From: the human T2T-CHM13v2.0 reference genome, Homo sapiens
Strand: one strand, 5' to 3'
Length of the DNA: 64,000 nt
Assembly: GCF_009914755.1 (NCBI RefSeq)
Contig: NC_060931.1
Position 1 is the first letter of the stretch. Every line of letters starts with the position of its first letter. The position numbers and the translations under genes were made by a program. The notes under the pieces are model-generated. The model was not told where the DNA came from. It ran no database searches and saw nothing but the letters and a program-made list of their open reading frames with translations. Shown here piece after piece: positions 4,291 through 44,579 of the stretch.

Positions 4291-4329
4291 ATTCACTATG
4301 TAAGCCACCCAAGAATTTTTAACAACATA

Positions 4330-4612
4330 ATGACAGTGCTTAAATAATTTACCTGACCATGGAAAAAACAGAGACAGAGGTAGGAAAACCCACCTGTAGA
4401 CAATGTTAGGACAGAGTGCATAAGTCCCTAAGACCCTGAACTAAGATGCTGCAGGGCCTCCAGGAAAGGACCAATGTGAGAGACACTGAGACAAGAGTTA
4501 GGGTGAGCCTGAAGGTGATCTGAACAGTAGTAATTGGAAAGTCAAAAAAAAAAATTCCAGAAGGGGCCAGAAAGCTGATGAATGTGTAAATTTAGACAGG
4601 AAAGGAATGTGC
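4330..4612 (+). repeat. Local duplication, donor copy (pairs with 7075-7361)
   Basis: About 283 bp aligns directly with 7075-7361, with about 15 substitutions by eye plus a poly-A length difference. Confidence 0.95.
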
Positions 4613-5575: not shown

Positions 5576-5912
<337 letters not shown>

Positions 5913-7049
5913 TTATGATGTAACTATTAACGATTACTGAAAATATATCTCAATAATAAAACAGTAAATCTTTTGGCTAAGCCATAGCTTTTGATACAAA
6001 TAAAGCTAAATGCCTATTAACTAATGGTGGAAACCACATTTTAGTTTATTGGAAGAGGTCAAGCACAATAGAGACAAAATGGGCTGGAATCCTAGTTCTG
6101 CCAGGATAACCTTGGCAACACAGGTTAACCTGCTGGACCCTCAATTTCCCATCTGGTTAAAAATACCTAGCTAACAGACTTCTGTAAGTTTAATGCGGTA
6201 ATGTACAAAAGTTCCTAGTATTGCTATTTGTTAATTTTCCCAACAGTAAAAAAAGGATAAAGATGAAAATCAAAATCAGCTATGAAATCCTCATTCCTCA
6301 TATTTACAGAGAAGGTTTCATTTATTCATTCTATAAATGTTTATTGCAAACCTACTGCGTGTTCTTGACACAGGGGATCAAGTGATGAACAAGACAGACA
6401 AGGTCTCTGCATTCCTGGTACTTACATCCTAATGAGGGAAGGCAGATAACCCAATAACCCAAAGAGACAATTTCAGAGAGAAATTTAAGTGCTATGAGCA
6501 ACAGCAAACGGGTGATGTGGCTTGGCTGGAGGGGATGGTCATTTAGCTTGGATGCATAAGAACCTAGGCCTGCTTGACTGATCTCCTTTAGCCAAGTATA
6601 GTCCTTTAGCCAAGGACCTCACCTTGTATGATACTTGCGGGGTACAGTGCAGATGATGAGAAGCCAGGCCTTCGCTTTCACCCATCTGTGGAAGTATCTC
6701 TTTTGCAGCTGTAGTTTAAAATATTTCTAAATGCCCTCATCCCAATACTCAAACTCTGAGGGTCAGAGCAACACCTAGGGGGTCTCAAGCACCTCTGCGC
6801 AGTACGCAGACACATGGAAACCGACAACTTCACAGTCCCCTCAGCTCCAAGAGTCCCGACTGAGGAGACTGGTGGCTTGTGAGGCGGAGAAGGACAAGCA
6901 CAAGTGTGCAGAAGGCAGCAAGCAAGTTGCGTTGCCGAAGGAAGGGCGGCGCGCCCCTGCTTAAGAAGTATCTGGACGACCTGCGACAGTGCCCATCAGC
7001 GACTCCAGAGGCCACAAACGCTCCCCGGGAAGCTGGGCAGCGCTAAGAG

Positions 7050-7361
7050 GCTGCCTGGGAGTTTCTGGCTTATGATGACAGTACTTAAAGAATTTACCTG
7101 ACCACGGAATAAACAGAGACAGAGGTAGGAAAACCCAACTGTAGACAACGTTCAGACAGAGTGCATAAGTCCCTAAGACCCTGAACTAAGACGCTGCAGG
7201 GCCTCCAGGAAAGGACCAATGTGAGAGACACTGAGACGAGAGTTAGGGTGAGCCTGAAGGTGATCTGAACAGTAGTAATTGGAAACTAACAAAAAAAAAA
7301 AAATTCCAGAAGGGGCCAGAAAGCTGATGAATATGTAAATTCAGACAAGAAAGGAATGTGC
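7050..7361 (+). repeat. Composite templated insertion (copies of 5893-5920 and 4330-4612)
   Basis: 7050-7077 matches 5893-5920 at 26/28 positions. 7075-7361 matches 4330-4612. The two segments share ATG at the junction. Confidence 0.9.
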
Positions 7362-8700: not shown

Positions 8701-9229
8701 AGGCACGAGATGACAAAGGACAGCATCAGTGTGAGACCCGGGGCTCGGAGACCGTGACCCTACCTCCAGAGGCAGTCGTGCAGATTCGTGCCGGGGTGAT
8801 TTTGTTCTGTGCAGTTTATGTGCAAGGGGGTAGGAGGTGGGGAGAGCACCGTCGTTACTATTAAATCTCCCTGAAAGACGGAAAAGTCCACCCGACTTGA
8901 CTTCCCACTAGCCCAATGGCCTTCTTTGATCCTAGGACGAATGCAAGCAGCTGATGGTTTGGGGTCAGTTTGCAGACTGCAAATGTGTCGAGTGCCGCAG
9001 GTGGCGGGTGGGAAGGGCATGAGCATTTAGTGAGCACCTAGTATATGCCAGGAGCAGTTGCGAGCTTGCAACTGTGAGAAAGGCGCACCAGGCTCCAGTA
9101 CTCACGGGGCTTGCATTTTTTGTGGAAAGACAGACAATAAAGAAGAGAAAATACATATCTATGCAAAAAATAAAAGGCTGACAGACTGTTAGTACTGAGA
9201 GGAGGGCCAAGTCCACTTTCGAAAGTGGT

Positions 9230-9950
9230 TTAGCGCGTGATGGGGCGCTCACCCTGAGGGCCTCTAGGCGAGGGTGGCTTTTACCCAGATTCCTGAGCCT
9301 GGGAAAGGAGCTGCCACACCCAGTCTCGCACAGAGCGTTCCAGGCGAAGGGAATAGCAAATACAGGGTATTTAGCCTCCCTGAAGACCCAACTAACCGAC
9401 CTCACCGAGCTGGGCACCGCGCGTGGCTCGCTGGGCTCAGCGCCTGGGACGGAGTAAGGGCTCCACAGTGTTAAATCCCCCTGCCAACCACCACCTGCAG
9501 CGCTCGACGCATTTTCAGTCTCCAAACTGACCCCAATTCAAGGTTTCTGAGACTCTTTCCGGAGCTATTCTGTTCACATTTCATTCACCACGCTCAGATC
9601 TTCGCTTTCTGGAACCATCCCCCTCGCGAAATGTCTGGGACTGTCTGTTTCGGATCTGGCAGGCGGCGGGCGAGGGCGGGAGGCGCCAGAGATGCTGCCG
9701 AGCAAATCCACTGTCATGCTGCCCACGTCGGCACACGGAGAAGCTTATTGGAGAAGATTTCAAATCGAATGACTCCGCGGTTCCTAAACCACCTCGCAAA
9801 GCCCGACCAGCGCCAGGTGGCTGGACGGGTAGTGGAAGGACGCGTCTGGCAGGCGCGCGGACCGTCCAAGGAGGCACCTTGCCCACGCCCAGCCCCGCCG
9901 TCGGAGCAGCTTAGACTGGGTTTTCCCAAACCTCCTTCCGTCTTTCTGTA
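9230..9950. promoter_or_regulatory. Second CpG patch; possible alternative upstream or divergent promoter
   Basis: CpG-rich. SP/KLF-type boxes (cccacgcccagccccgcc, ~9882-9899). Minus-strand donors AGG|GTGAGC (exon end 9253) and TCG|GTGAGG (exon end 9406). Confidence 0.55.
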
Positions 9951-14681: not shown

Positions 14682-15225
14682 CAGAGTGATTTTTTTTTAA
14701 CCCAAATCTGATCATGAACATCTTCCACAGTTTCCCATTGCTCTTAGGATAAAGACTAAACTACTTACATGGTTCTCAACGTTCCACGTGGTCTGACATC
14801 TAACCAGCTTCATCCTGTGTCAAGTTCCCCCTTCTTCCTTTCCCTTTCTCCACATTGATCTGCTTCCAGGACTTTGTTCCTTCCAGGCATGGGGCATTGG
14901 GACAAACTTGCCCCACTCTCTGCTGGAATATGCTGTTCCTTTCTCTTCATTTAGTTAACGCAGACTTCCTTCAGACCTCCTTCAGTCATCTGTTCCTCTG
15001 GGAAGTCCTCCTTGACGTTCACAGTCAGGTCAACTCAGCCTATCATTGCTCTGGTTGAAACTAAGTTGTGTGTTTTTTTGGAGGGGTGTGGAGGAGTTGT
15101 TTGTTTTGGTAGAACCTATCACAGTTGAAATTATGTTTATTTTTTGTGATTTTTCTGATTAATTTCTGTCTTCTAGCTGGATTGTAGGCTCCACAACGTG
15201 AAGATCATGTATATTTTTAGTCTCC

Positions 15226-15642
15226 TGCCAACCTAAATAACAAACAGAGAGGCTCTCTAAAAGAAAATGATATTTATTCATGGATAGGGCATTCCAGTGG
15301 GAGTATGTGTGCCATAGTCACCTATGTGTGTATTCAGGGAGGTAAAGGCTTTTAAGGGAAAAGTGAAGAGCATTACATTAATTGTTTCTGAGATAATTAT
15401 CCTTGGCTTCAAGGATCAATAACAAAGGTGGTGCCAGTTTGAGGTTGGACAGGCAGTTGCTGGGTAGACACCCTTGCAGAGGTATTTTTTTGTGCAAGGT
15501 TGTGGTTTCTGCAGAGTCTTTGGGGACAGTTCTGGGTATCAGGCATACAAGCCTGGGAACTCTCCCTTCATGGCTTTCCCCACCTCTATTTGTCAGAGTT
15601 TTTAACACAAATGACTCCATTTTGATTCTGACAACTTTCACA
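15226..15642 (-). mobile_element. Solo ERV1 LTR (LTR37-like) inserted in an L2
   Basis: TG...CA termini, TSD ctcc/ctct. Reverse strand begins tgtgaaagttgtcagaatcaaaatggagtca. L2 3' end continues on both sides. Confidence 0.75.
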
Positions 15643-16176
15643 CTCTCAGTGCCTGTCTCAATACCTAGCACCTAGTAAGCATTCAAATATTCGTTGAATG
15701 AATAAACAGAATCCCAAAGAATAAACTTGAATGGTGGCTGGAGCTGGGGAGATGGGAGGTGGATGCCCATTCCAGGCCCAGTGAGCAGAGATGTTATTAG
15801 AGTTAATGTGCTAGTGTTCAGGTCACAGAGATAATTTTGTAGCAACTTGACAACGGAAAGATGCTGCCTCCTTTAAAGTTGCTATTTTGCCAAGGTCATA
15901 AGTTAACTGATTTTTATTTTATCCCTTTCCTTTTCAATATATTTCCTTATTCCTTAAAATGTCCACATCAACTCTGCCAAATGTATCAAAAGAAATGGCA
16001 GAAGTGGGCTTAGTTTGGCTGCCTCCATCCTGCCATAGCCGGGTTCACATAGACCTTTCCCTATTTACAGAAATGGAAACTAGGAATCCTCCATGTCTGT
16101 GTATAGTGTTACCTTTACTTGAAGTAAATTCTTCACCTTTGTGTTAGCCTCTTCTTAACTCCACAACACTGTGGAG

Positions 16177-16450
16177 TGTGATAGTCCAGTTGCTGTGGAT
16201 CAGTAGGGAATTGTATGTAAGAGTCATTTCACGATAATTCTTGAGAGTATTTCACAAAGGTGAAAATTGTGTTTTCGCATTATGTTGTGGTATCTCATGT
16301 GACTTAAGATGCCTCATATTATATTTATTATATATTTATTTGGGTGCCCATTTTATATTTCTTTCTAAATTATAAGCTCTTTTTCTTATTCTTCTTGGGT
16401 GTCCTCCTTTCACATAGCACATAAAAGACATTCCGTATATTGCTGGTTAA
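16177..16450. repeat. Patchwork templated insertion with 14-bp flanking duplication
   Basis: acaacactgtggag at 16163-16176 and 16451-16464. 16174-16222 is the reverse complement of 16552-16600. 16277-16454 copies 18451-18667. Confidence 0.9.
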
Positions 16451-16937
16451 ACAACACTGTGGAGATATGAAAAAGGCTAGCACAAAGGTGAAAAACTTTT
16501 TTCAACCTGTGGTTTCATCAAAAGAAAGTGCCCTGTTCCCTGATGCTTATTTCTTACACGCAATTCCCTACTGATCCACAGCAATTGGAATATCACACTC
16601 AGATGAAATTGGTACTTCAGGGAAGAAACTGTGACTATCTTGCTCTTGTTCTTACAGACTGTTAAGATAATAAACTGAATTCCTGTAACCAAAAATAAAC
16701 TTGTCTATGAAGAGTATATGCTTAGAATGAGACATATCAATACCTATATAATCCTTTTTTTTTTTTTCCTTCCTCAAGGTGAGTGCAACTTGCTAGGACT
16801 ATGAGATGGGGAAGAAAGTCTGATGATTCCAAAAGAATGATCTTTCAGTGTTTGCTTTACCCCAGTATTTCTTGCAAAAGAAACTGTGTACAAAATAACA
16901 TCAAAACAATAGCAAAAACAAAAAACAATAGAAGTTA

Positions 16938-17118
16938 GACAAGCGTGGTGGCACACACCTGTAGTCCCAGCTACTTGGGAGTCTGAGGTAGGAGGATCAC
17001 TTGAGCCTAGAAGCTCAAGGCTATAGTGGGCTATGATCATGTCTATGAAAAGCCACTGCACACAAGCCTGGGCAATATAACAAGACCCTGTCTCTAAAAT
17101 AATATTAATAATAATAGT
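16938..17118 (+). mobile_element. FRAM / Alu right-arm monomer
   Basis: Right-arm-only Alu with TSD aatagaagtta at 16927-16937 and 17119-17129. Confidence 0.88.
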
Positions 17119-18450
17119 AATAGAAGTTAAAGAAAATGAATAAAATTGCCTATAATGCTACCTACAAAAAAGCTATTTTTATTGTTCAATGTTTCCTTCT
17201 AATATTTTTTCATGTAGTTGTATTTTTAGAGTAAATACACACTTAAGTTATATTTCTGATTTGATATTATATACGTTTTCCTAATTGTTATTTCATGATT
17301 ATCAATACAATATTATATATTCATTCAAATGATCATCATGAAGACTACAAAAAGCCCTGAAAAATATGTATAATATCAATTTAACTTGTACCATAACAGA
17401 AATAACTGAAGTTTGAATACAAAAAAGACTAGGTTTAAGTACTATTTTTTCAATTTAGTAGTTCTTTCATCTTAGGCAAGTAATTTAACCTTTCTCAATT
17501 TTTGCCTCTTCATTTTAAAAATGAAATTCCTAATAGCTGCCTCACAGTTTATTACAGGGATTGAAAGCAATAACATGATCAGCTGAGGTAGGTCCTTAAG
17601 GAAAGGAAGATACTTATAAAAATTTATTTTTTAGTAATTTCACTTTTAATAAACCTCCCTTTCACAAAGAAATCTAATTGATCTCTCTTTTAATCATGTT
17701 ACAGTGAAGTATCTATTTGCCCACTAGTTCCTTCTTAGGGAAATTTCTAGAGTGGAGTTACTGGGTTAAAAGATGTGCCATGAATATGGCTCTGAAAATT
17801 GCTCTCCTCGAGCCTGTGCTAGCTGGTGTTGCTGTGGCGATGTTGGAGCCTGTTGCTCTCACCCCATCCTCTCCCACATTATAGAGCCACATTTCTAAAG
17901 GAAGTGGACAATAAGTATACATTGAACCAATAAGAGTCAGAAATACTGCTTGTTTATCCAGTAAGCTGAACCATGTATTCCTTGAATAGGATGGTACCTG
18001 GGCAACCTCTTCCCAACTAACAGAAATGGAAAATCATAATAGCTCCGTAGGATGAAGGAGTCTGAGCTCTGGGAGGCTGAACATTCTTCGCTGCATTGAC
18101 CATTTGTGTTTAGCTGAAGGCTAGCTAGCGTGTGCTTGAACCACAAGCAACTGTCACTTTAAGGAGCTTGAACCCCGGGGAGTACCTCACGTGGGTACTC
18201 TTCTTACTGGGGGAAGCAGACCAAAAAGACCTCAACTTTACAAGTTCTGTCCTGATCACCACTCCCAGAGACTCAATCTGTCATGGTGGGCATTCGCTTG
18301 TCAGTGACTGCTCTAAGCATGAATGGGCTTATGCCCCAATTCTGGACAGCAAGACAGGAAGGTAGCTCTGCTCAGGGATTTGGAATCACTTGTGTCCTGA
18401 ATAACATGAACTCAGAACAATGTTGGTATGAAACAACTTACATAACACCA

Positions 18451-18667
18451 GCATTATGTTGTAGTGTCTCATGTGACTTCAGATGCCTCATATGATATTT
18501 ATTATATATTTATTTGGGTAAACAATTGTATATTTATTTATATTTGGGCATATAAATGTGGGAATTTATATTCCCTTCTGAATTGTAAGCTCTTTTTCTT
18601 ATTCTTCTTGGATGTCCTCCATTCACATAGCACATAAAAGACGTTCCATAAACTGTTGGTTAAACAA
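18451..18667 (+). repeat. Donor of 16277-16454 (degenerate L2 3' end)
   Basis: gcattatgttgt...gatgcctcata...aagctctttttcttattcttcttgg...cacatagcacataaaagac...ggttaaacaa shared with 16277-16454. Confidence 0.9.
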
Positions 18668-18703
18668 ATGCGTAAATACATTTTGTTCAAAAACTACAAT
18701 CTA

Positions 18704-18848
18704 GGCCAGGTGCAGTGGCTCACACCTGTGATCCCAGCACTTTGGAAGGCCAAAGCAGGAGGACTGCTTGAGCCCAGGAGTTTCAGATTAGCCTAGGCAA
18801 CATAGCAAGAGCCTCTTCTCTATGAAACAACAAAAATAACAACAAAAC
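18704..18848 (+). mobile_element. FLAM (Alu left monomer)
   Basis: Left-arm-only Alu with TSD actacaatcta at 18693-18703 and 18849-18859. Confidence 0.9.
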
Positions 18849-18894
18849 ACTACAATCTAAATTCACTTAACAAGGTAGTGGAATTATATTTTAA

Positions 18895-19866
18895 TTGTCT
18901 GCTAGGATACTTTAGCTCCAAATAAGAGAAATTCAATTAAAGATCACTTAAAAAAGATGTATTATCACACAGCAAGAAGTCTGGAGATATGGTGACTTCA
19001 GCCTGGGTTCATTCAGTGGTTCAAACATGTCAGCAAAAGACTCAGGTTCTTTCTGTATCTCTGCTTTGCCAAGTTTACCATGAGGATTTTCTCCTCAGTC
19101 TGGATGTACATAGCAGTTATCAATATCATGTCAGGAAATATTCATGTCCAGAGGCAGAAAAGAATACACCTTCCTTGAGCACATTCTATAAGTACAAAAA
19201 CCTCTCCTAGAAGCCCCCAGCTGAATTACCTTTGTGTATCATTGGTCAGAATTGGGGCCCATGCCCATTCATACTTAAAGCAGACATTAGGCAAGACAAA
19301 ATTTCTGCCATGACTGATTTAGACCATAGGGTTCATACCTGAAAAACAAAACAAAAAACTGGAGTTCAATTCGTAAATGTAGAAGGAAGGCAGGTGTGCA
19401 GCATAAACCACACAGTTTGCACAGACAGTTCAGGCCACTCTTATGAGTTAAGGAATTTTGAGAACCTTCCCTACATCTAGGTTCCCAGAGGCCAGTCAGG
19501 GGCCAGCCTTGCAAGCAGGCCTTTCTAAGGAAGCAGTCTTAGGCCTGCCATTCATTTTTTCTGCACATTTCTACATTCGAAGTGTGGCTTGTCCACAAGC
19601 CAAGCCCCTTGAGCCCCATTGAAGAAGGAAAGAACTTCATTGTTTCCTTCTCAAGAGCAGGCTGAGCAAGTGCATTTTCAAGTATTTCTTTACGGTCTTG
19701 GCTGTGTATTCATGGCAAGACCCACATGGCTTCTTTTAGGAAATGAAATGACGTTTCGTTAGGAAATGCATGTTAGACTGAGGGAGCTGGTGTGGAAACC
19801 TTTCTAGGGCTGCTCAAAGGGTGCTAAACCATGTCAGTGAGACCTCAACCCACTGTGACTGATACA
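18895..19866 (-). mobile_element. Old MLT1 (MaLR) LTR interrupted at 19381-19845
   Basis: cattggtcagaattggg...gccatgactgatttagacca...aaacaaaaaactggagttc. The MLT1-like terminus caacccactgtgactgataca appears to resume after 19845. Confidence 0.55.
19381..19845 (+). repeat. Local duplication of 32023-32482 (MER21 end plus unique flank)
   Basis: Colinear and diverged. Shared non-LTR blocks include cttggctgtgtattcatggcaagacccaca and gactgagggagctggtgtggaaacctttctagggctgctcaaa. Confidence 0.92.
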
Positions 19867-20807: not shown

Positions 20808-21588
<781 letters not shown>

Positions 21589-31672: not shown

Positions 31673-32210
31673 TGCATCAAGGATCTCCAAGACCATCCCC
31701 AGGTTGGAGGATTTGCTAAGAGGAATCACAGGACTCAGTGTACAGTCATCTGCATGGGTATGATTTATTTCAGCAAAACAACACAAAGCAAAACCAGTAA
31801 AGAGAAAATACACTGGGGTGATGTCTCAAGGAAACTAGGCACAAGCATCTAAGAGTCCTCTCCCAGTGGCATCACACAGGACACACTTGATTTCTCCAGC
31901 ATCAAGTTGTGACAACACATGTGAAGATCTACCAACCAAGAAGGCCAAGCGCCCAGAGTTTTTGTTGGAGGATGGTCACATAGGCACCCTTTGCCTAACA
32001 TATACTAAAATACCAGACTTCCAGAGGAAGGCTGGTGTACAGCATCAACCACACTGTTTGCACAGACACTTCAGGCCACTTTTACCAGTTAAGGAATTGT
32101 GGGAACCCTCCCTACATCTGAGTTCCCAGATGCCAGCCCAGGGCTAACCTTGCAAGCAGGCATTTCCTAAGGACAGCGATCTTAGGTCTGTAATTAAATC
32201 TGTTCTGCAC
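31673..32210 (-). mobile_element. MER21-family LTR
   Basis: ccaagaccatccccaggtt...cacaggactcag...agttcccagatgccagcccagggctaaccttgcaagcagg...ttctgcac. Confidence 0.85.
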
Positions 32211-32443
32211 CTCTTCTCTACACTCCAGCTGTGGCTTGTCTACATGCTAACCCCATTGAATTAACAAATTTCATTCTTTCTTTCTCAAGAGCAGACTGAG
32301 CAGATGCACTTTAAAGGACCTCTTTATAGCCTTGGCTGTGTATTCATGGCAAGACCCACACGGCTTCTTTCAGGAATGAAACGATGTTTTGTTGGGACAT
32401 ATGTGTAGTTGGACTGAGGGAGCTGGTGTGGAAACCTTTCTAG

Positions 32444-32858
<415 letters not shown>

Positions 32859-44491: not shown

Positions 44492-44579
44492 TTACTCTCT
44501 CTCTCTCTCTCTCTAGATATGGAGAAACATATATACATATATATGTTTCTCCATATCTAGAGAGAGAGAGAGAGAGTAA
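44492..44579. repeat. Near-perfect 88-bp palindrome
   Basis: ttac(tc)n tagatatggagaaacatatata - ca - tatatatgtttctccatatct(ag)n taa; arms differ by one dinucleotide unit. Confidence 0.95.

What the first reader, a model, noticed from the sequence alone, without database searches (positions are those of the whole stretch)
16132..16492. Multi-template patchwork inserted at the tip of a palindrome
Seen: 16132-16165 (ttcacctttgtgttagcctcttcttaactccaca) is an imperfect inverted repeat of 16458-16492. Removing the insert and one copy of the 14-bp duplication acaacactgtggag restores a ~70-bp hairpin with loop acac. The insert contains a 49-bp inverted copy of 16552-16600 (4 mismatches, GAG microhomology), 30 unassigned bp, cacaaaggtgaaaa (as at 16481-16494), 10 bp, then ~178 bp from 18451-18667. 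Inference: a break at a hairpin/cruciform tip repaired by three or more template switches, preserved as a fossil.
Basis: partly seen in the sequence, partly recalled or inferred. Interest (0 to 1): 0.72.

Follow-up and report, generated by a model that had tools for sequence, protein, structure and literature searches.

The report
Ancient multi-template DNA repair scar
About 6 kb upstream of the human OSBPL3 gene lies a roughly 330-base patchwork of pieces matching nearby DNA, likely the scar of one error-prone repair event in an early monkey-ape ancestor; it is an ordinary case of a known mutation type, and the flanking palindrome is about as likely a product of the repair as its cause.

Summary
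The patchwork is real. All pieces check out: a 49-bp inverted copy (45/49), two exact 14-mers, a long tract from 2.2 kb away (two blocks, 65/69 and 92/103), and GAG and ACAA junction microhomologies. No other genomic copy was found, so it is not a detectable mobile element. Copies differ at 19 of 221 sites, dating it near the simian ancestor by published branch lengths.

The palindrome arms have diverged no more than the inserted tracts (4/34 plus one gap, p=0.52). The left arm's template lies on the same side as every other donor. So the arm may itself be the fold-back step of the same event (0.48) rather than an older hairpin that broke at its tip (0.40). Only outgroup genomes can decide, and none were available.

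The class is known: complex germline templated insertions (MMBIR or Pol-theta type), 33 and 26 per person in PMC8421209. A second two-donor patchwork lies 9 kb away (7050-7361). No function is suggested.

The parts
16114..16128 (.). Perfect 7-bp inverted repeat with 1-nt loop at the outer end of the left arm; possible snap-back junction (inferred)
   Evidence: such sites occur 165 times in 264 kb, about 0.012 for a given 20-bp span; noticed after the fact
16119..16165 (-). Left palindrome arm, inverted copy of 16458-16505 (core 16132-16165 against 16458-16492); either an older flank or the fold-back tract of the same event
   Evidence: core 30/34 plus one gap; 39/47 plus one gap overall
16163..16176 (+). 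14-bp direct duplication of 16451-16464; holds the 4-nt loop and the inner 7-bp stem; 7 bases after removing microhomology
   Evidence: 14/14
16174..16222 (-). Inverted templated tract from 16552-16600; GAG microhomology at its left join
   Evidence: 45/49, two mismatches at a CpG
16223..16252 (+). 30-bp filler with no donor found; with its edges it carries an internal direct repeat (about 16220-16232 and 16244-16255, 12/13), consistent with re-priming (inferred)
   Evidence: no donor; score reached by 3 of 2,000 shuffles and 42 of 3,000 genomic 42-mers; span chosen after inspection
16253..16266 (+). 14-bp direct tract matching 16481-16494 (right arm)
   Evidence: 14/14; the left arm matches 12 bases in a row in reverse
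16267..16276 (+). 10-bp filler made of two 5-mers, each the reverse complement of part of the preceding 14-mer; consistent with snap-back (inferred)
   Evidence: 602 of 200,000 random 10-mers can be tiled this way; test designed after inspection
16277..16345 (+). Long direct tract, block 1, matching 18451-18519
   Evidence: 65/69
16346..16351 (+). 6 bases in place of donor 18520-18564 (45 bases); 16345-16350 is the reverse complement of a 6-mer inside that donor interval; an extra micro-switch or a later deletion
16352..16454 (+). Long direct tract, block 2, matching 18565-18667; ends in ACAA microhomology with the right flank
   Evidence: 92/103
16451..16505 (+). Right flank: return point, loop and right palindrome arm; template for three pieces
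16552..16600 (+). Donor of the inverted 49-bp tract
18451..18667 (+). Donor of the long tract, about 2.2 kb to the right; no other genomic copy found

Best explanation
The segment from about 16122 to 16450 is a patchwork of copies of nearby DNA, all matching templates that lie to its right within 2.2 kb, likely laid down in one germline repair event by repeated microhomology-primed template switching (MMBIR or Pol-theta-like) near the common ancestor of monkeys and apes, with the left palindrome arm likely being that event's last fold-back step rather than an older hairpin. Inferred path, read as a bottom-strand 3' end growing leftwards from a break at 16451-16455. It primes with ACAA at 18667 and copies to 18451, skipping 45 bases. 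It makes short snap-back and re-priming products (10-bp filler, 14-mer, 30-bp filler). It folds back onto its own strand to copy 16552-16600. It re-primes with GAG at 16464 and runs to the break end. It folds back with a 3-bp primer around a 4-nt loop to copy 16458-16492/16505, then joins the left end near 16121-16131. The pieces, their donors and the microhomologies are shown; the order, the enzyme and the single-event timing are inferred. No function is proposed.
For: Every piece of 14 bp or more has a local donor, none found elsewhere in the genome. All 5 donors lie at or right of 16451. Microhomology is present at the GAG, ACAA and ACA joins. Tract divergences agree: 4/69, 11/103, 4/49, pooled 19/221; the arm core at 4/34 is indistinguishable (Fisher p=0.52). 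The hairpin has no family in the genome, so it probably arose by a local switch in any case. Type 1-4-3-2 switches create inverted repeats and make up 31% of 794 events (PMC5453318 passages). Over 6,000 hairpins were made this way on the primate lineage (PMC10710096 passages). A 3-nt primer around a 4-nt loop fits the favoured geometry of synthesis-dependent end joining (3-4 nt, under 10 bp apart; PMC5728401 passages). There is a junction-like 7-bp palindrome at the arm's outer end.
Against: No outgroup test was possible. The full 47-bp arm is more diverged (8/47 plus a gap; p=0.11), and the core's 95% interval is 3-27%, so an older palindrome is not excluded. This path needs the growing strand to stop at the same break end twice and needs both strands of the right side as template. 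Three joins show no microhomology: the end of the 49-mer and the starts of the 14-mer and the long tract. Pol-theta tracts are rarely over 10 bp (PMC7165422 passages), so Pol theta alone fits the 49-217-bp tracts poorly. The filler statistics were designed after inspection. A short arm copied shortly before the insertion would look identical.
Confidence: 0.48

Rival explanations
1. One reading: a near-perfect hairpin (34-47-bp arms, 4-nt loop), probably itself made by an earlier template switch, already stood here. It was cut at its loop and repaired by multi-template synthesis. The 14-bp duplication is an aborted first round across the break, and the 288-bp spacer then stabilised the palindrome.
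For: The return point (16451-16455) lies at the loop edge and no flank deletion is needed. The empty site folds strongly (z about -9.7) and such hairpins are rare (2 in 264 kb). Palindromes break centrally and are stabilised by loss of symmetry or by spacers (review PMC8701086 passages). Insertions at pre-existing quasi-palindromes were the largest germline class in PMC8421209 (42 of 103 and 47 of 99, section 10 part 1), though that search looks for inverted templates. The second patchwork at 7050-7361 also has weakly inverted flanks (11 of 1,000 shuffles; 1 of 104 GC-matched sites).
Against: The arms are not measurably older than the insert. It needs two events at one site close in time. In the reviewed mouse palindrome 93% of 118 centre rearrangements were deletions, and spacer inclusion was uncommon. 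The duplication is off-centre to the hairpin axis by 2 bases, unlike a symmetric double nick.
Confidence: 0.4
2. The pieces arrived in several independent events over millions of years at one fragile spot.
For: The 45-to-6-base replacement inside the long tract could be a later deletion. The intervals on each tract's age are wide.
Against: Tract divergences agree (4/69, 11/103, 4/49). The pieces abut and all donors lie on one side. Single events with up to five templates are documented (PMC8421209).
Confidence: 0.08
3. A mobile element or retrocopy inserted with a 14-bp target-site duplication into a small palindromic transposon (MITE).
For: A 14-bp flanking direct repeat is within the usual range for retrotransposition (recalled). 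The genome search skips common words and is of limited sensitivity.
Against: No second genomic copy of the insert, arms or donors was found. There is no poly(A) tail. The insert is explained by local donors, and the stretch is not among the longest masked stretches listed in the hub note (that list is partial).
Confidence: 0.04

Closest known systems
Complex germline MMBIR-type templated insertions (MMB-TI, class CM; Osia et al. 2021, PMC8421209)
   Same: Several nearby templates copied in both orientations into one insertion, with microhomology at joins; a germline event with no larger rearrangement seen in the window; up to five templates reported.
   Different: Those are recent variants against the reference. 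This one is old (copies 8.6% apart), uses a donor 2.2 kb away (beyond that tool's 100-bp template search), and three joins lack microhomology.
Pol-theta end joining / synthesis-dependent MMEJ templated insertions (PMC7165422, PMC5728401)
   Same: Direct and inverted copies of flanking DNA, repeated aborted rounds, 3-4-bp primers, AT-rich insert (32% GC), short snap-back and loop-out fillers.
   Different: Those tracts are usually 3-30 bp and rarely over 10 bp per round; here tracts are 49, 69 and 103 bp, one from 2.2 kb away.
Four-point short-range template switch, type 1-4-3-2 (Loytynoja and Goldman 2017, PMC5453318; PMC10710096)
   Same: Creates an inverted repeat with a short loop in one step; fits the left arm.
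   Different: That model allows only two switches; this locus needs at least four to six.
Palindrome centre-break and stabilisation (mouse transgene palindrome and PATRR, as reviewed in PMC8701086)
   Same: A rearrangement at the palindrome centre that destroys symmetry.
   Different: Those palindromes are hundreds of bases to kilobases long and mostly suffer deletions. Here the arms are 34-47 bp, the outcome is an insertion, and prior existence of the palindrome is unproven.

Membership tests
Complex templated insertion (MMB-TI class CM) | Insertion built from two or more distinct templates | tested here: met
   16552-16600, 16481-16494, 18451-18667 and 16451-16464
Complex templated insertion (MMB-TI class CM) | At least one tract copied in inverted orientation from nearby DNA | tested here: met
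   49-bp tract, 45/49, donor 329 bp away
Complex templated insertion (MMB-TI class CM) | Microhomology at resolvable joins | tested here: met
   GAG, ACAA and ACA at the three donor-to-donor joins; none where tracts meet fillers
Complex templated insertion (MMB-TI class CM) | Absent from the ancestral or reference allele, arising in one step | not testable with these tools
   No non-human mammalian genome is held (no relatives)
Pol-theta templated insertion (TINS) | Synthesis tracts short (3-30 bp) and from close flanking DNA | tested here: not met
   Tracts of 49, 69 and 103 bp, one 2.2 kb away; only the 14-mers and fillers fit
Pol-theta templated insertion (TINS) | Dependence on POLQ | not testable with these tools
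   Ancient fixed-looking event
Hairpin/cruciform centre-break | Junction at the palindrome centre | tested here: met
   Return point 16451-16455 at the loop 16454-16457
Hairpin/cruciform centre-break | Palindrome older than the rearrangement | tested here: inconclusive
   Arm divergence 4/34 (p=0.52) or 8/47 (p=0.11) against 19/221; no outgroup
MITE or other interspersed element | Dispersed copies in the genome | tested here: not met
   Only local matches; 0 matches for the paired-arm pattern; the search has limited sensitivity and Dfam was not available
Known structured RNA (Rfam) | Match to a covariance model | tested here: not met
   5 matches at E up to 1 in 15000-19500, none over 16119-16600 and none reaching its gathering score

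The most novel reading that the evidence does not exclude
A template switch created a perfect short palindrome that soon broke at its tip and was neutralised by a patchwork of six or more switches. Such fossils are frequent enough (two patchworks in this 64-kb window, both with inverted flanks) to be mined genome-wide across primate alignments. That would give a direct test of whether hairpin tips start multi-template repair in the mammalian germline.
Probability: 0.2. Interest if true: 0.5.

Novelty: new member of a known kind. Interest (0 to 1): 0.27.

Why it matters
On its own it matters little: a probably neutral intergenic scar of a described mutation class, outside the RefSeq functional elements listed in the hub note. 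Its value is as a clear ancient example showing that multi-template repair with long tracts ran in the primate germline and can still be read about 40 million years later (calendar date recalled). It also poses one cheap test, whether short palindromes cause such events or are made by them, which a primate alignment could answer here and at scale.

Tried and rejected
Genome-wide copies: searches of the human assembly with the whole locus, the right flank, the left flank (twice; the first was swamped by a 44-base repeat edge), the long donor, the filler region and the right arm found only local matches. The paired-arm pattern gave 0 matches. So no repeat family could stand in for an outgroup.

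Donors for the fillers: the best ungapped window match to the 30-mer was 20/30, and 8-12-base local matches were judged chance and not separately tested. A 12-base inverted match at 20892-20903 is not collinear with the neighbouring weak match at 20912-20946 and was rejected. Rfam gave nothing over the locus.

Retrotransposition was rejected: no poly(A), and the duplication is half microhomology.

Background: 13 local pairs in 264 kb after masking 56,355 bases. Three belong to the finding and two to the second patchwork. An adjacent pair in L026 was dropped because the stretch lies in a locally repeated unit, leaving 0 clear patchworks in the 200 kb outside the window. That sample is all chr7 and small.

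Literature: 'OSBPL3' with 'template switch' gave 2 unrelated papers; 'FoSTeS, templated, insertion, primate, ancient' gave 2 papers, neither about such loci. Supplements of PMC10710096 and PMC5453318 were not read and could list this site.

Full report
Observation. The region was read and compared with the whole window. From left to right: an inverted arm (16119/16132-16165 against 16458-16492/16505), a 14-bp direct duplication (16163-16176 = 16451-16464), a 49-bp inverted tract (16174-16222 against 16552-16600, 45/49), a 30-bp filler, an exact 14-mer from 16481-16494, a 10-bp filler, and a long direct tract from 18451-18667. Window E-values were 7e-43, 1e-14 and 6e-6 for the three long matches. 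An exact 14-mer copy within 400 bp was seen for 70 of 19,188 random genomic 14-mers. The empty site, built by coordinates in a script, folds as a 73-nt hairpin at -26.9 kcal/mol against -6.3 +/- 2.1 for 500 shuffles.

Refinements. The long tract is two ungapped blocks (65/69 and 92/103) with 6 bases where the donor has 45. Six bases at that spot are the reverse complement of a 6-mer in the skipped donor interval, which hints that 18451-18667 is the donor and that one more micro-switch occurred. The 14-bp duplication overlaps the neighbouring tracts by GAG on one side and ACAA on the other, so it reads as a templated re-copy with microhomology, not a clean target-site duplication. The fillers have no donor in the window or genome but are not random-looking. 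The 30-mer with its edges holds a 12/13 direct repeat (3 of 2,000 shuffles; 42 of 3,000 genomic 42-mers). The 10-mer is two 5-mers reverse-complementary to the adjacent 14-mer (602 of 200,000 random 10-mers). Both tests were designed after inspection and are only suggestive of re-priming and snap-back synthesis.

Not a mobile element. Searches of the human assembly with the locus, flanks, arm, filler and donor returned only local matches; one search returned 40 distant or repeat-edge hits to the first 53 bases of its query, far from the locus. A paired-arm pattern had 0 matches. The tool warns that absence does not prove rarity, and Dfam was not available. Rfam gave nothing over the locus.

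Age. The inserted tracts differ from their donors at 19 of 221 sites: 0.091 corrected, or 0.046 per copy (95% interval 0.027-0.072). Published neutral branch lengths to hominoids are 2.68% from the ape-Old World monkey ancestor and 4.23% from the ape-New World monkey ancestor (bioRxiv 10.1101/036434, passages). The event therefore falls near the simian ancestor, at the youngest about the ape-Old World monkey split. Those rates exclude transposons and conserved sites, so the match is approximate; about 40 million years is recalled.

Cause or product. The palindrome is not a bystander. A dense scan found 7 hairpin sites of score 30 or more in 264 kb and 2 at or above the empty site's score of 49, so a chance landing within about 5 bp of such a tip is around 1e-4. 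But the link can run either way.

For a product: the arm core is as diverged as the tracts (4/34, p=0.52). Its template lies to the right of 16451 like all the other donors. The hairpin has no family. A perfect 7-bp palindrome sits at the arm's outer end (about 0.012 per 20-bp span). The fold-back needs only a 3-base primer around a 4-nt loop, the geometry favoured in PMC5728401 (passages). Switches of type 1-4-3-2 create such repeats and are 31% of 794 human-chimp events (PMC5453318, passages).

For a cause: the strand returns at the loop edge with no flank loss. The 47-bp arm is somewhat more diverged (8/47, p=0.11). Palindromes are known to break centrally (review PMC8701086, passages). Quasi-palindrome-associated insertions were common in PMC8421209. 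I put 0.48 on the same-event fold-back and 0.40 on the pre-existing hairpin. No outgroup genome is held, so this could not be settled.

Mechanism. The simplest single path is a bottom-strand 3' end at 16451-16455 growing leftwards. Every template then lies behind it. Inverted tracts would be fold-backs onto its own strand, and direct tracts would be loop-outs or invasions of the top strand or sister. Tracts of 49-103 bp and a 2.2-kb jump fit MMBIR-like synthesis better than Pol theta alone, whose tracts are rarely over 10 bp (PMC7165422, passages), while the fillers look like Pol-theta scars. The order and enzymes are inferred.

How ordinary. Osia et al. report 33 of 103 and 26 of 99 germline templated insertions per person as complex, with up to five templates, and propose that such events accumulate in evolution (PMC8421209, passages and section 10 part 1). 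PMC10710096 (passages) found 53,666 putative switches in genic regions on the primate-to-human lineage and noted multi-switch cases its method misses. In this window a second patchwork exists: 7050-7077 matches 5893-5920 (26/28) and 7072-7361 matches 4327-4612 (93%), overlapping by 6 bases, with both donors on one side and no copy elsewhere. Its flanks are weakly inverted (11 of 1,000 shuffles). In 200 kb of other chr7 sequence no clear patchwork was found, after dropping one ambiguous pair in a locally repeated unit. Two literature searches found no description of this site; supplements were not read. PMC7615360 and PMC7407515 (passages) support template switching and Pol-theta repair acting in germlines generally.

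Verdict. It is a new, unusually legible member of a known class of repair scars, with no sign of function. Interest 0.27.

Noticed in passing
window 7050-7361: Second two-donor patchwork in OSBPL3 intron 1 next to the GC-rich promoter region: 28 bp matching 5893-5920 and 290 bp matching 4327-4612 (93%), with a 6-base overlap, both donors on the left, and no other genomic copy. It is 44% GC between flanks of 59% and 73%, and the flanks are weakly inverted.
   Followed up: partly
window 44497-44576: Near-perfect palindrome with arms of about 39 bp that include CT/AG and AT microsatellites; probably a young fold-back product.
   Followed up: partly
window 8959-9020 and 9475-9536: 62-bp inverted pair (84%), 454 bp apart, in the OSBPL3 alternative first-exon region; the second copy overlaps the listed enhancer 9480-9649.
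   Followed up: no
window 19384-19845 and 32025-32482: About 460-bp direct pair at 79% identity, not matched in the 200-kb background; probably two copies of an interspersed repeat.
   Followed up: no
window 18620-18690: The end of the long donor loosely resembles the 3' end of an L2 element; resemblance recalled, not tested.
   Followed up: no
L023 3107-3152 and L024 6121-6210: A 46-bp near-perfect palindrome in unique-looking DNA (L023), and a 90-bp palindrome resembling the small mariner-derived element MADE1 (L024; name recalled).
   Followed up: no
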